Of a stretch of 64,000 nt of DNA, positions 37,811 through 57,287 are shown piece by piece. The stretch covers positions 704,001-768,000 of the forward strand of contig CAVQMO010000010.1 in NCBI GenBank assembly GCA_963713605.1, given 5' to 3'. The stretch is from an uncultured Nitrososphaerales archaeon. Its GTDB lineage: Archaea; Thermoproteota; Nitrososphaeria; Nitrososphaerales; Nitrososphaeraceae. Both the position numbers and the translations under genes were made by a program. Below the pieces are notes generated by a model, which ran no database searches, was not told the DNA's origin, and saw nothing but the letters and a program-made list of their open reading frames with translations. The stretch's first letter is position 1, and the number at the start of each line of letters is the position of its first letter.

Positions 37811-37884
37811 GCCTTGATAGCTCAGCCTGGTAGAGCGTTGCCTTGGTAAGGCAAAGGTCCGGGGTCCAAATCCCCGTCAAGGCT
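37811..37884 (+). tRNA. tRNA-Thr(GGU)
   Basis: GCCTTGA/TCAAGGC acceptor stem, TTGCC-TTGGTAA-GGCAA anticodon arm, T-loop TCCAAAT. Confidence 0.95.
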
Positions 37885-54398: not shown

Positions 54399-54812
54399 CT
54401 ATGACACTTCGCCTTGATAGCAATATATGAATTTTGCCACTATTTCAACAGGGAAAGTCCTACGCTTTACCGCAAGCTACTCATTTACGTATCAGTGATT
54501 TGACGCTTATTTCGTATCCGAAGTATGTATGCGACGGCAACTAGAGCTACTAGTATACCCAACATGGCAAAAAAAGTACCCTCATTCTTTACAGTCCCTT
54601 GTGGCAATATATTCAAAGTACTTGCTTTAACAAATGAACAAGATGCTAGTAGCCCAGTCAAACAGAATACTGACAATTGATGAATTTGGACTAGTCAGTA
54701 TTTAAAGTTCTACCCAGTCTGGCAGGTTATCATATTTTGACCCTCAATTTCCTACTTCGGTGACCACTATTACAGGTTATACATTTATTACTTATTCGCC
54801 TTCAGAGGCAAT

Positions 54813-54884
54813 GATGCTAATGATGAAAAGGAAGAGCCGTCTGAGATAAGCCTCAGTGATGTTGATTATGAGTCCTGAAGCATC
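54813..54884 (+). ncRNA. C/D-box guide sRNA
   Basis: Terminal stem GATGCT/AGCATC; C ATGATGA (54820-26); D' CTGA (54841-44); C' GTGATGT (54856-62); D CTGA (54875-78); TATA-like TTTATTA about 25 nt upstream. Confidence 0.85.
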
Positions 54885-55219
54885 CACTCCTAATCAATGA
54901 GCTTCACAATTTTGAGCTTTCAATACTTAGTTAGTTGTAAGTCATGGGAAGGAAGGTGGGATAATGAAGAGAGAAGTGGTGTGAATGATGGTGGTGAGGA
55001 TGCGACCAAGTCCAGAGGGATCGGAACCAGAACAGGAAGGCGGTGGTGGAAGAGAAGACGTGGATGAAGACAATCTTGAGAACGACTATCGATTCAGTTG
55101 TGCTGGCAAATAAAGTACGACCCATGACATTCGCTATTCGACATCACTCTATATCCACTTGAGAAAAAGCTAAACTCGCTTCAATACTTATTTATAGCTA
55201 CATATGGAAGGTAACCCGA

Positions 55220-55906
55220 ATGAGGCTTGGCTGTCTTTTTTCTGGAGGAAAGGATAGTACCTATGCAATCTATGAAAGCATACGGCATGGGCACGAAATC
55301 AGTTGCCTATTGACGTTATTTCCGCCAAGCAACGAAAGCCTACTTTTTCATTTTCCAAATGTCTATATCACTCCTCTGGTTGCAAAAGCAATAAGACTTC
55401 CACACTTGGTATCGTCGGTTAAGGGAACTGATTTAAAATGTGAGTTAGCAGCACTTGAAGGCCTAATCAATCAGGCAAGGGTTCAATATCATATTGATGG
55501 AATTGTGCACGGCGGTATTTCAAGTAGATTTCAAAAATCCAATTTCAGCAACTGCTGCTCTAAGTATGGCCTTCATGTTGTTAGCCCACTGTGGGGTAAA
55601 CCCGCAATCAAGTTCATGAGAGGACTAATTTCGAATGGCTTCAAAACTCTAATAACAAGTGTTTCAACTATGGGTCTAGACCGATACTGGTTGGGGAAAA
55701 TAATAGACGAGAAGGAACTGGAACGATTAATTGAGTTGAGTGATCGTAATCACTTTAATTTGAATTTTGAAGGAGGAGAGGCAGAAACTTTAGTCTTGGA
55801 TAGTCCTATTCATCATGAAACAGTTGATGTTATGGACTTTGAAATTCAATGGGATGGTCAGCGTGGAATTTTTAAAATAACTAGCGTAGGGCTAAAATCA
55901 AAATAA
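55220..55906 (+). CDS. dph6: Diphthine--ammonia ligase (Dph6 family)
   Basis: LFSGGKDS PP-loop, FHFPN, PLW and EGGEAETLVLDSP. Confidence 0.88.
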   Translation: MRLGCLFSGGKDSTYAIYESIRHGHEISCLLTLFPPSNESLLFHFPNVYITPLVAKAIRLPHLVSSVKGTDLKCELAALEGLINQARVQYHIDGIVHGGISSRFQKSNFSNCCSKYGLHVVSPLWGKPAIKFMRGLISNGFKTLITSVSTMGLDRYWLGKIIDEKELERLIELSDRNHFNLNFEGGEAETLVLDSPIHHETVDVMDFEIQWDGQRGIFKITSVGLKSK

Positions 55907-55919
55907 GGAAACAAAAGAT

Positions 55920-57287
55920 ATGCTCGACAGCCTGCGAACAAACCTGAGAAGCGCGCTTAAGAAAATCATTGGCGCTTCTGACATTAATCGTGAGCTAATA
56001 GAATCACTTTGCAAGGACGTCCAAAGGGCATTGTTGCAATCTGATGTTAATGTAAAACTCGTGCTTACTGTCACGCAGAATATTAAACAACGCTGCCTTA
56101 GTGAGCAGCCGCCGAAGGGTCTTTCTCGCAAAGATCATATAATAACAATACTTTACAGTGAATTAGCTGAGCTCCTCGGTTATACGGGTGAAGAGATAAA
56201 AACCATAGATAAATCGGCTCAGCCTGAGGTAGATCTATTCTCATTCAAGCCGGGGAAACTCAACGTTGTACTCATGTTGGGAATTCAAGGAAGTGGCAAG
56301 ACAACGGTTTCCTCAAAACTAGCAAGGTGGTTCACAAAGCATGGGCACAAAGTTGGTGTAGTGGGAGCGGACACATTTCGGCCGGGAGCTCTGACCCAAT
56401 TAAGGATGAACTGTAGCAAGGTCAACGTAGAAGTATATGGTAAAGAAGGCGAGAATGATGCCGTAAGGATTGTTGGGGACGGGATCGATTATTTCAGAAA
56501 ACAGAACATTGACATTGTGATCGTTGATACTGCAGGGAGACATAAGGAGGAATCAGGTCTTTTGGCCGAGATGACAGGCATGTACGAAGTCGCCAGACCG
56601 GAACTCGTATTGTTGGTCATCGATGGCACTATTGGCCAACAAGCCTTTAACCAGGCCAAGGCGTTCCATAGTGCAGCTCCGATCGGGGGCATAGCTATTA
56701 CGAAACTCGATGGAACCGCAAAAGGCGGAGGGGTTCTGGCTGCAGTAGTGGCTACAGGTGCCAAAGTGATGTTCATCGGGACAGGTGAAAGAATTGACGA
56801 TTTAGAGCTGTTTTCTCCAACACGATTTGTTGGGCGTTTGCTTGGGATGGGTGATATAAAAGCCTTGCTCGAGATGGCCAAAGGATTAGAGCTTAAGGCC
56901 GATGAAAATCAGGCAAAAAGGGTATTAAGCGGGAAAATGACAATAGAAGACTTTTATGCACAGATGGAAAATGTAGGAAAAATGGGCCTTAGGAACATTA
57001 TTGATAACCTCCCTGGTTTGTCTGGAATGGTAAAGGAAGATCAGTTAGATGCAATCCAAGGCAAATTGGAAAAATGGAGGGTTATTATTCAGTCTATGAC
57101 AACCGCTGAGCGCTCGGATCCAGATATCGTGAATGATTCTAGGAGGAAACGAATCGCCCGAGGGTCAGGGTTAACGGAACATGATATTAAAGATCTTATT
57201 AAGCAGTACAGTAATTCTAAAGCGGTTATGAAGCAGGCAAAAGGAAGACAGATGCAGGGAATGCTCCGACGATTCGGGATAGGATAG
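55920..57287 (+). CDS. srp54: Signal recognition particle protein SRP54
   Basis: GIQGSGKTT, DTFRPGA, DTAGRH, TKLDGTAKGGG and SRRKRIARGSG. Confidence 0.97.
   Translation: MLDSLRTNLRSALKKIIGASDINRELIESLCKDVQRALLQSDVNVKLVLTVTQNIKQRCLSEQPPKGLSRKDHIITILYSELAELLGYTGEEIKTIDKSAQPEVDLFSFKPGKLNVVLMLGIQGSGKTTVSSKLARWFTKHGHKVGVVGADTFRPGALTQLRMNCSKVNVEVYGKEGENDAVRIVGDGIDYFRKQNIDIVIVDTAGRHKEESGLLAEMTGMYEVARPELVLLVIDGTIGQQAFNQAKAFHSAAPIGGIAITKLDGTAKGGGVLAAVVATGAKVMFIGTGERIDDLELFSPTRFVGRLLGMGDIKALLEMAKGLELKADENQAKRVLSGKMTIEDFYAQMENVGKMGLRNIIDNLPGLSGMVKEDQLDAIQGKLEKWRVIIQSMTTAERSDPDIVNDSRRKRIARGSGLTEHDIKDLIKQYSNSKAVMKQAKGRQMQGMLRRFGIG

What the first reader, a model, noticed from the sequence alone, without database searches (positions are those of the whole stretch)
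54813..54884. Dual-guide C/D sRNA: 23S rRNA near the PTC plus wobble C34 of tRNA-Met
Seen: a complete C-D'-C'-D architecture with a 6-bp terminal stem and its own TATA element. The D' guide AGGAAGAGCCG is complementary to CGGCUCUUCCU, the archaeal/eukaryotic LSU segment after the PTC motif GAUGU. The D+5 rule points to the C equivalent to E. coli C2510, which from recall is the site guided by human SNORD49 (Cm4456). The D guide TGATTATGAGTC is complementary to GACUCAUAAUCA, a CAU anticodon arm, and D+5 lands exactly on C34. Established: Cm34 of elongator tRNA-Met is C/D-guided in Haloferax (sR-tMet) and vertebrates (SNORD97). Inference: one RNA couples rRNA and tRNA wobble methylation. Because the guide spans 37/38, it would act on spliced or intron-less tRNA. 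Neither target is in this window.
Basis: partly seen in the sequence, partly recalled or inferred. Interest (0 to 1): 0.75.

Follow-up and report, generated by a model that had tools for sequence, protein, structure and literature searches.

The report
Conserved dual-target box C/D guide RNA
This is a genuine small archaeal guide RNA, kept across a whole class of archaea, that most likely directs sugar methylation of one cytidine at the ribosome's catalytic centre and of the first anticodon base of methionine tRNA; it is a new example of a well-known kind of RNA.

Summary
Window 54813-54884 (+) has box C, D', C' and D, a 6-bp terminal stem and a TATA-like element about 26 nt upstream.

- **D' guide:** it pairs 10 Watson-Crick bp with this genome's 23S rRNA. 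N+5 falls on the cytidine equal to E. coli C2510.
- **D guide:** it pairs 11 Watson-Crick bp plus one G·U with an intron-less tRNA(CAU). N+5 falls on C34.
- **Chance:** a strict architecture search finds only this locus in the 4.08-Mb genome and none in three simulated genomes.
- **Conservation:** a covariance model finds the RNA in 126 of 151 genomes of the class. Both guides occur together in 110 of 151.
- **Covariation:** one family changed the D' guide (G to A) together with its 23S target (C to U). The terminal stem also covaries.
- **Machinery:** fibrillarin, Nop5 and L7Ae genes are present.

Expression and methylation were not shown. The mechanism and both target sites are already known elsewhere (human SNORD49 and SNORD97, haloarchaeal sR-tMet, Pyrococcus sR41). 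This scan reported the same family before in another genome (e1-6435688). Verdict: real, and a new member of a known kind.

The parts
54784..54790 (+). TATA-like promoter element (TTTATTA), centred about 26 nt upstream of the first stem base
   Evidence: Read. TTATTAC is kept at the same distance in the same-genus homologues. Promoter function is inferred from position only.
54813..54818 (+). 5' strand of the terminal stem (GATGCT)
   Evidence: It pairs with 54879-54884. 5 of 6 pairs show compensatory changes across 27 homologues, with 93.5% of cells paired against 36-46% in slid controls.
54820..54826 (+). box C (ATGATGA)
   Evidence: The ATGA core is invariant in alignment A1.
54827..54840 (+). 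D' spacer (14 nt). Guide bases 54830-54839 (GGAAGAGCCG) pair with 23S CGGCUCUUCC. G54836 is N+5 and pairs with 23S C2592 (E. coli C2510).
   Evidence: Duplex energy is -19.9 kcal/mol, against -13.7 for the best site in the 16S region. GGAAGAGCC is invariant in A1. A G-to-A change in family f13 is matched by C-to-U in its 23S.
54841..54844 (+). box D' (CTGA)
   Evidence: Nearly invariant in A1.
54845..54855 (+). D'-C' linker (11 nt). It can close a short helix beside the internal kink motif.
   Evidence: Its length and sequence vary among homologues.
54856..54862 (+). box C' (GTGATGT)
   Evidence: The TGA core is invariant in A1.
54863..54874 (+). D spacer and guide (TGATTATGAGTC, 12 nt). It pairs with tRNA(CAU) nt 30-41. 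G54870 is N+5 and pairs with C34.
   Evidence: Duplex energy is -15.9 kcal/mol, the best of 36 ARAGORN tRNAs. ATTATGAG is kept in 110 of 151 class genomes.
54875..54878 (+). box D (CTGA)
   Evidence: The GA is invariant in A1.
54879..54884 (+). 3' strand of the terminal stem (AGCATC)

Best explanation
Window 54813-54884 (+) encodes a 72-nt archaeal box C/D sRNA.

**Assembly (established for the family, inferred here).** L7Ae binds the kink motifs formed by boxes C/D and C'/D'. Nop5 and the methyltransferase fibrillarin then join. Each guide base-pairs with a target RNA, and the target nucleotide paired to the fifth guide base upstream of box D or D' receives a 2'-O-methyl group.

**D' guide.** It would produce Cm at 23S position 2592, which equals E. 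coli C2510. This lies in helix 90 beside the peptidyl-transferase centre. It is the site that SNORD49 guides in human 28S.

**D guide.** It would produce Cm34 in the intron-less elongator-type tRNA-Met(CAU) at C1:819808-819883.

**Biogenesis.** The gene is probably transcribed from its own TATA-like element. It heads a conserved, same-strand array: sRNA, then a diphthamide-synthase-like gene, then srp54.

**Shown here:** the architecture, both complementarities in this genome, class-wide conservation of both guides, stem covariation, one guide-target co-change, and genes for the three core proteins.

**Inferred:** transcription as a discrete RNA, RNP assembly, the two methylations, and the Met (not Ile2) identity of the tRNA.
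For: **Architecture**
- All boxes and the stem are in place.
- The full layout is unique in the genome: 1 site against 0, 0, 0 in simulated genomes.

**Targets in this genome**
- The D' guide pairs 10 Watson-Crick bp with the only 23S gene. N+5 falls on E. coli C2510.
- The D guide pairs 11 Watson-Crick bp plus one G·U with tRNA(CAU) on C1. N+5 falls on C34, and the gene has no intron.
- Duplex energies with the D guide: -15.9 kcal/mol for this tRNA, -12.1 for tRNA-Ile(GAU) (mismatch at N+5), -10.6 for the Ile2-like tRNA and -9.9 for the initiator-like arm. The D' guide with 23S gives -19.9.

**Conservation**
- BLAST finds homologues in 13 of 13 same-genus genomes at E <= 3e-14. One of these, G013, is unpublished.
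- Model R1 matches 126 of 151 class genomes and 108 of 110 high-quality ones.
- Both guides occur together in 110 of 151, and in 97 of 110 high-quality genomes. The control pattern occurs in 0. One genome in these tallies, G168, is unpublished.
- The tRNA anticodon arm is identical in 23 of 23 family-f1 orthologues fetched.

**Covariation**
- Terminal stem: 5 of 6 pairs show compensatory changes.
- Guide and target: all 79 f13 genomes with the pattern carry GAAAAGCC, and the 31 others carry GAAGAGCC. 23S reads CGGCUUUUCC in 4 of 4 f13 genomes examined and CGGCUCUUCC in 5 of 5 non-f13 genomes.

**Machinery**
- Fibrillarin scores 273.8 bits, Nop domain 150.1 bits and L7Ae 100.5 bits in this genome.

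**Family resemblance**
- All 27 sub-threshold Rfam matches to this stretch are C/D snoRNA families.
- The two with E below 0.05 are SNORD49 (same rRNA guide) and sR41, whose D guide carries UAUGAG in the same register.
Against: - **No expression evidence.** The four runs laid are assembled contigs, three of them flagged as probably DNA. None shows a discrete small RNA.
- **No methylation data exist.**
- **Long D' spacer.** It is 14 nt, while PMC4644070 describes guides as typically 10 to 12 nt (passage). Efficiency at the D' site could therefore be reduced.
- **Imperfect box C'.** It ends in U instead of A.
- **Different register in some relatives.** In five (G016, G020, G018, G015, G024) the D spacer is 13 nt. 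A strict N+5 count there lands on U33, not C34.
- **nop5 reads as two ORFs.** In this assembly they overlap and lie in different frames. This may be an assembly error or a real defect.
- **tRNA identity rests on indirect evidence.** It depends on acceptor-stem comparison and recalled identity rules. The target's anticodon arm is identical to that of tRNA-Ile(GAU) except for nt 34.
- **The guide-target co-change is a single evolutionary event.** It was inherited by one family.
Confidence: 0.82

Rival explanations
1. The RNA is a real C/D guide, but the targeted tRNA(CAU) is tRNA-Ile2, the AUA decoder that receives agmatidine at C34, and not elongator tRNA-Met. The guide would then methylate or mask C34 of Ile2.
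For: The target's D arm, anticodon arm and variable loop are 90% identical to tRNA-Ile(GAU) over positions 8-65. The anticodon arm differs only at nt 34. No isotype-specific tRNA model was available.
Against: - The acceptor stem GCCGGGG differs from tRNA-Ile(GAU) (GGGCCGA). The other CAU tRNA (GGGCCCA) shares GGGCC and C4-G69 with tRNA-Ile(GAU) in f1 and f13 genomes.
- The target's acceptor stem resembles the initiator-like gene (AGCGGGG).
- In f13 the same GCCGGGG...CCCCGGCA tRNA carries an intron.
- Known C/D-guided Cm34 is on tRNA-Met.
Confidence: 0.1
2. Only the rRNA guide is catalytic. The tRNA-complementary arm acts without methylation, for example as a chaperone or tether, or the whole RNP works mainly as a folding chaperone for the 23S centre.
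For: - PMC4644070 proposes chaperone roles for some dual guides (abstract passage).
- The D' guide is more widely kept than the D guide: 126 against 110 of 151 genomes.
- Family f9, G026, G037 and G033 keep the D' guide but carry other D guides.
- The 13-nt spacers in five relatives shift the register.
Against: - In this genome and in most homologues C34 sits exactly at N+5 with a Watson-Crick G-C pair.
- The guide core is invariant against an invariant target.
- Cm34 guided by C/D RNAs is documented for tRNA-Met in other archaea and in humans.
Confidence: 0.05
3. The motif is a chance look-alike or a dead gene in this genome and makes no functional RNA.
For: There is no expression evidence. 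Folding energy is not exceptional (z = -0.31). nop5 appears frameshifted in this assembly.
Against: - The architecture is unique in the genome.
- The RNA is single-copy and conserved class-wide, with stem covariation and a guide-target co-change.
- It keeps its place upstream of the diphthamide-synthase-like and srp54 genes.
Confidence: 0.03

Closest known systems
Haloarchaeal sR-tMet (Joardar et al. 2011, as listed in PMC4033218 and cited in PMC6601510; passages seen, original paper not read)
   Same: It is a trans-acting box C/D sRNA. With fibrillarin, Nop5 and L7Ae it guides Cm34 of elongator tRNA-Met.
   Different: - sR-tMet acts on the intron-containing precursor. Here the gene has no intron and the guide spans nt 37/38.
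- No Rfam match to an sR-tMet model appeared at E <= 10.
- The second guide here has a conserved 23S target.
Pyrococcus sR41 (Rfam RF01126). PMC2584109 describes a Pyrococcus sRNA, sR49, predicted to guide Cm34 of tRNA-Met. That sR41 and sR49 are the same RNA comes from an earlier scan note and was not checked here.
   Same: The D guide carries UAUGAG two bases before box D, so C34 of a CAU anticodon falls at N+5 (alignment).
   Different: The score is 19.4 bits against a gathering score of 54, so this RNA is not a member. The D' guide of sR41 is not conserved in the model. Here it is the most conserved part.
Human SNORD49A/B (Rfam RF00277)
   Same: The guide is nearly identical: AGGAAGAGCCGUCUGA here and AGGAAGUGCCGUCAGA in the model consensus. 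SNORD49A/B are listed for 28S Cm4456. By recalled numbering offsets this is the homologue of E. coli C2510.
   Different: - SNORD49 is a eukaryotic snoRNA.
- The score is 21.0 bits against a gathering score of 37, so this RNA is not a member.
- One guide base differs.
- The second arm is unrelated.
- The resemblance is most simply explained by the shared, conserved target.
Human SNORD97 / SCARNA97 (PMC6601510, passages seen)
   Same: These box C/D RNAs direct Cm34 of elongator tRNA-Met(CAU).
   Different: They are two cooperating eukaryotic RNAs and no rRNA target is described for them. The function reported there is protection from angiogenin cleavage, which is not applicable here.
Pyrobaculum tRNA-targeting C/D sRNAs (PMC6009581, section 15 read)
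   Same: These are archaeal C/D sRNAs, some of which aim at position 34 of a single tRNA.
   Different: There, about 80% (115 of 144) pair a tRNA guide with an orphan guide. Here the partner guide has a conserved 23S target, and the pairing of the two guides is kept across a class.

Membership tests
Archaeal box C/D sRNA | Box C (RUGAUGA) near the 5' end and box D (CUGA) near the 3' end | tested here: met
   ATGATGA at 54820-54826 and CTGA at 54875-54878.
Archaeal box C/D sRNA | Internal D' and C' boxes | tested here: met
   CTGA at 54841-54844. GTGATGT at 54856-54862, where the last base departs from consensus.
Archaeal box C/D sRNA | Terminal helix flanking boxes C and D (stem of the kink-turn) | tested here: met
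   A 6-bp stem. 5 of 6 pairs show compensatory changes, with 93.5% of cells paired against 36-46% when slid.
Archaeal box C/D sRNA | Spacers of about 12 nt between C and D' and between C' and D | tested here: inconclusive
   The D spacer is 12 nt. The D' spacer is 14 nt (13-14 nt in homologues), which is longer than the 10-12 nt called typical in PMC4644070.
Archaeal box C/D sRNA | Guide complementary to rRNA or tRNA with a Watson-Crick pair at N+5 | tested here: met
   D': 10 bp with 23S, with G-C at N+5. D: 11 bp plus one G·U with tRNA(CAU), with G-C at N+5.
Archaeal box C/D sRNA | Core proteins L7Ae, Nop5 and fibrillarin encoded in the genome | tested here: met
   Caveat: nop5 reads as two overlapping ORFs in this assembly.
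Archaeal box C/D sRNA | Accumulates as a discrete small RNA | tested here: inconclusive
   Only assembled contigs were available. None delimits the RNA.
Archaeal box C/D sRNA | Target nucleotides are 2'-O-methylated | not testable with these tools
   This needs RiboMeth-seq, primer extension or mass spectrometry.
Rfam SNORD49 (RF00277) | Score at or above the gathering threshold (37 bits) | tested here: not met
   21.0 bits, E = 0.0024-0.0043.
Rfam sR41 (RF01126) | Score at or above the gathering threshold (54 bits) | tested here: not met
   19.4 bits.
Any Rfam 15 family | A match at gathering score in the window at this place | tested here: not met
   The only gathering-level match in the window is tRNA-Thr at 37811-37884.

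The most novel reading that the evidence does not exclude
The two guides are not just neighbours on one RNA. They form an obligate, ancient pairing, kept in at least 110 of 151 genomes of the class. One RNP would serve both the peptidyl-transferase centre of the nascent large subunit and the wobble base of elongator tRNA-Met. The two substrates would compete for or coordinate on the same particle, linking ribosome production to AUG/AUA decoding fidelity. The RNA may also be cut from the 5' leader of a conserved operon of a diphthamide-synthase-like gene and srp54, tying it to expression of the translation apparatus. Both sites are the ones guided by SNORD49 and SNORD97 in humans, so both guided methylations could date to before the archaeal-eukaryotic split.
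Probability: 0.12. Interest if true: 0.6.

Novelty: new member of a known kind. Interest (0 to 1): 0.42.

Why it matters
- **A gap in the literature held here.** Mesophilic ammonia-oxidising archaea and their relatives are thought to have few guide RNAs. In the three searches run, no listed paper combined names of these organisms with box C/D sRNA terms.
- **A clean test case.** The RNA is single-copy and class-wide, with two specific and independently conserved targets.
- **Two precise predictions.** It predicts Cm at the 23S position equal to E. coli C2510 and Cm34 in elongator tRNA-Met, both testable in cultured strains.
- **Parallel with humans.** Separate snoRNAs guide the same two sites in humans, which bears on how old these modifications are.
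- **A natural experiment.** The relatives with 13-nt spacers test whether the methylation site is measured from box D or from box C'.

Tried and rejected
- **Expression.** The look-up of sequencing runs and read laying gave only Logan contigs. X1 and X2 cover 54852 or 54854 onward. X3 is a relative's contig covering 54762-54848. X4 laid nothing. No start, end or strand of an RNA can be read from these, so nothing is concluded.
- **Other D guides.** The homologues from G032, G026, G037 and G033 carry different D guides.
  - I looked for their targets in their own 23S loci and found nothing of 10 clean bp or more.
  - The idea that the G037 guide aims at C34 of a tRNA-Gln(CUG) was not supported. 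The 1-mismatch genome hits are not tRNAs by ARAGORN.
  - The same held for the G032 hits.
- **Genome-wide half-unit scan.** I scanned for a box, an 11-14 nt spacer and a D-like box, with a perfect 10-mer match to rRNA or tRNA. It gave 15 hits against 11 in the reversed control, which is noise. Only this locus has two adjacent hits. No inventory of other C/D sRNAs was obtained.
- **Papers not held.** PMC92551 (Clouet-d'Orval 2001) and PMC4615378 (Suzuki and Numata 2014) are not in the library. The original Pyrococcus tRNA-guide description and the TiaS identity rules were therefore not read. What I say about TiaS and IleRS identity elements is recalled.
- **Failed pattern.** One search used a spacing that was too long and found nothing. 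Searches replaced it.
- **Earlier scan notes.** Look-ups by place and by sequence gave nothing.

Full report
**1. The observation**

The stretch reads GATGCT-A-ATGATGA-AAAGGAAGAGCCGT-CTGA-GATAAGCCTCA-GTGATGT-TGATTATGAGTC-CTGA-AGCATC.
- This is a complete C-D'-C'-D layout with a 6-bp terminal stem at 54813-54818 and 54879-54884.
- TTTATTA at 54784-54790 is centred about 26 nt before the first stem base. That distance is usual for an archaeal TATA box; this spacing rule is recalled knowledge.
- No ORF of 40 aa or more overlaps the RNA.
- A regex for the whole layout with a stem of 4 bp or more finds exactly one site in the 4,085,224-base genome, this one. It finds none in three first-order Markov simulated genomes.
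- Folding energy alone is unremarkable (z = -0.31).

**2. The rRNA target in this genome**

The window is C10:704001-768000 of a 15-contig assembly that is 87.5% complete.
- The only 23S gene is C1:880853-883835.
- It contains GAUGUCGGCUCUUCCCAUCC. Guide bases 54830-54839 pair with CGGCUCUUCC, 10 Watson-Crick bp.
- The flanking positions T54840 and A54829 do not pair.
- The fifth base upstream of box D' (G54836) pairs with 23S C2592.
- Alignment with E. coli rrlH puts that cytidine at C2510.

**3. The tRNA target in this genome**

ARAGORN finds two intron-less CAU tRNAs.
- The one at C1:819808-819883 has the anticodon arm UUCGA-CUCAUAA-UCGAA.
- The D guide pairs with nt 30-41: 11 Watson-Crick bp plus G41·U.
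- G54870, the N+5 base, lies opposite C34.

RNAduplex energies for the D guide:

| Partner | Energy (kcal/mol) | Note |
|---|---|---|
| tRNA(CAU) on C1 | -15.9 | best of 36 ARAGORN tRNAs |
| tRNA-Ile(GAU) | -12.1 | identical arm, but G34 gives a mismatch at N+5 |
| second CAU tRNA (C10) | -10.6 | |
| initiator-like arm | -9.9 | |

The D' guide gives -19.9 kcal/mol with 23S.

**4. Which CAU tRNA is the target**

- The target has the acceptor stem GCCGGGG.
- The other CAU tRNA has GGGCCCA. Like tRNA-Ile(GAU) (GGGCCGA), it has C4-G69.
- This pattern recurs in f1 and f13 genomes.
- A third gene near C1:280700-280830 has A1, AGCGGGG and GCGGG-CUCAUAA-CCCGC, and appears to carry introns. It looks like the initiator.
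- In f23, f21 and f13 genomes a tRNA(CAU) carries the same ACUCAUAAUC core. The f23 and f13 copies show the GCCGGGG...CCCCGGCA acceptor (5' strand read in f23, 3' strand in both). In f13 it has a 40-nt intron just 5' of A31.
- I read the target as elongator tRNA-Met with about 85% confidence. No isotype-specific model was available, and the identity rules I lean on are recalled.

**5. Conservation**

- BLAST of 111 nt finds strong homologues (E <= 3e-14) in 13 of 13 same-genus genomes, one of them the unpublished G013. It also finds recognisable ones in many family and order relatives.
- I extracted 27 homologues, leaving G013 out, and aligned them as A1. GGAAGAGCC, the box cores and the D' box are invariant or nearly so.
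- In the terminal stem, 5 of 6 pairs carry compensatory changes. 93.5% of cells pair, against 36-46% in slid controls, and 0 of 500 shuffles reach the observed covariation score.
- Covariance model R1 matches 126 of 151 genomes sampled from the class, and 108 of 110 at 90% or more completeness.
- The pattern GAARAGCC...TGANG...ATTATGAG, which requires both guides, occurs in 110 of 151 genomes and in 97 of 110 high-quality ones. It is essentially single-copy. The reversed control occurs in 0 of 151.
- By family the counts are f13 79/80, f21 8/10, f22 6/8, f23 9/17, f18 4/9, f25 1/1, f1 2/3, f9 0/3 and f19 0/14.
- These tallies include the unpublished G168.

**6. Guide-target co-change**

- All 79 f13 matches read GAAAAGCC. 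The 31 other genomes read GAAGAGCC.
- 23S reads CGGCUUUUCC in 4 of 4 f13 genomes examined (G156, G036, G086, G063). A fifth, G162, gave no rRNA match.
- 23S reads CGGCUCUUCC in G000, G037, G032, G026 and G033.
- The guide base that changed (G54834 here) pairs with the rRNA base that changed (E. coli C2512).
- This is a single evolutionary event, but it is the kind expected only if the pairing matters.
- By contrast, the tRNA arm is identical in 23 of 23 f1 orthologues fetched. Guide position 12 varies freely among same-genus homologues (T, G, C, A), as expected for a duplex limited to about 10 bp.

**7. Caveats from relatives**

- In G016, G020, G018, G015 and G024 the D spacer is 13 nt. C34 is then sixth, and U33 fifth, from box D. 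The distance from box C' to the C34-pairing base stays at eight.
- Family f9 (G032), G026, G037 and G033 keep the D' guide but have other D guides. I found no convincing target for these.

**8. Machinery and context**

- Fibrillarin is at C1:927396-928043, Nop5 at C1:928362-929040 and L7Ae at C1:446722-446994.
- nop5 reads as two overlapping ORFs in different frames.
- The gene downstream of the sRNA, on the same strand, is a diphthamide-synthase-family gene (55220-55906, PF01902, 179.7 bits). srp54 follows at 55920-57287.
- tblastn finds each of these two genes beside the sRNA in 40 of 58 loci searched. That set holds a few duplicate genomes, L012 and one locus without the sRNA. In other families the gap between the sRNA and the next gene is often only about 12-100 nt.
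- The array is thus conserved. Co-transcription is possible but was not tested.

**9. Comparison with what is known**

- Rfam has no gathering-level match here.
- At relaxed thresholds all 27 matches are C/D snoRNA families.
- The two with E below 0.05 are SNORD49 (21.0 bits, threshold 37) and sR41 (19.4 bits, threshold 54).
- The SNORD49 consensus guide differs from ours by one base. The sR41 D guide has UAUGAG in the same register.
- PMC9941101 lists SNORD49A/B for 28S Cm4456.
- PMC4033218 and PMC6601510 state that Cm34 of elongator tRNA-Met is made by a C/D RNP with sR-tMet in haloarchaea, and by SNORD97/SCARNA97 in humans.
- PMC2584109 mentions Pyrococcus sR49 for the same job.
- In Pyrobaculum about 80% of tRNA-targeting sRNAs pair the tRNA guide with an orphan guide. 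A conserved rRNA-plus-tRNA pairing is therefore less usual, though it has precedent.
- In three literature searches no listed paper combined ammonia-oxidiser names with box C/D sRNA terms.

**10. Verdict**

This is a real box C/D sRNA with two well-supported predicted targets. The family appears undescribed in the literature I could search, but it is mechanistically ordinary. Expression and methylation remain to be shown.

Noticed in passing
window 54813-57287 and loci L003-L118: The sRNA gene sits on the same strand directly upstream of a diphthamide-synthase-family gene (55220-55906) and srp54 (55920-57287). tblastn finds each of the two genes beside the sRNA in 40 of 58 loci across the class, often with a gap of only about 12-100 nt.
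   Followed up: partly
G000:C1:928362-929040 (locus L085 1110-2196, minus strand): nop5 reads as two overlapping ORFs of 232 aa and 134 aa in different frames. The break lies between ...KTGAST and PPKHGILFQHP. This could be an assembly indel or a real frameshift.
   Followed up: partly
G000:C1 about 280700-280830: An initiator-like tRNA gene (AGCGGGG..., GCGGG-CUCAUAA-CCCGC) appears to be interrupted by introns. ARAGORN missed it at default settings.
   Followed up: partly
G000:C10:592016-592091 and G000:C1:819808-819883: tRNA-Ile(GAU) and the targeted tRNA(CAU) have identical anticodon arms and variable loops except for nt 34. The arm of tRNA-Ile(GAU) is the same in f1 and f13 genomes.
   Followed up: partly
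loci L152 (G063) and L159 (G086): In family f13 the orthologous tRNA-Met gene carries a 40-nt intron immediately 5' of A31. The guide's pairing region (nt 31-41) lies wholly in the 3' exon.
   Followed up: no
locus L079 (G033 23S rRNA): The 23S gene of G033 is about 3.3 kb. About 1 kb separates GGUUUGGUAC from the downstream GAUGUCGGCUC, which are nearly adjacent in other genomes. The inserted sequence ends directly 5' of the D' guide's target. It may be an rRNA intron.
   Followed up: no
locus L123 (G032:C1:1527080-1527260): This is a second box C/D-like RNA. Its D guide GGATCTTGAGTG would place C34 of a CAA anticodon loop at N+5, a tRNA-Leu(CAA)-type guide. It was not checked against that genome's tRNAs.
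   Followed up: no
G000 contigs C2-C9 and C11-C15: 35 of 36 ARAGORN tRNAs and the rRNA operon lie on contigs C1 and C10 (2.3 Mb, GC 0.39-0.40). The other 13 contigs (1.79 Mb, GC 0.364-0.395) hold one doubtful tRNA.
   Followed up: no
loci L020, L021, L022, L024, L025: Five family relatives have a 13-nt D spacer with the extra base next to box D. The distance from box C' to the C34-pairing base is unchanged. This is a natural test of which box sets the methylation site.
   Followed up: partly
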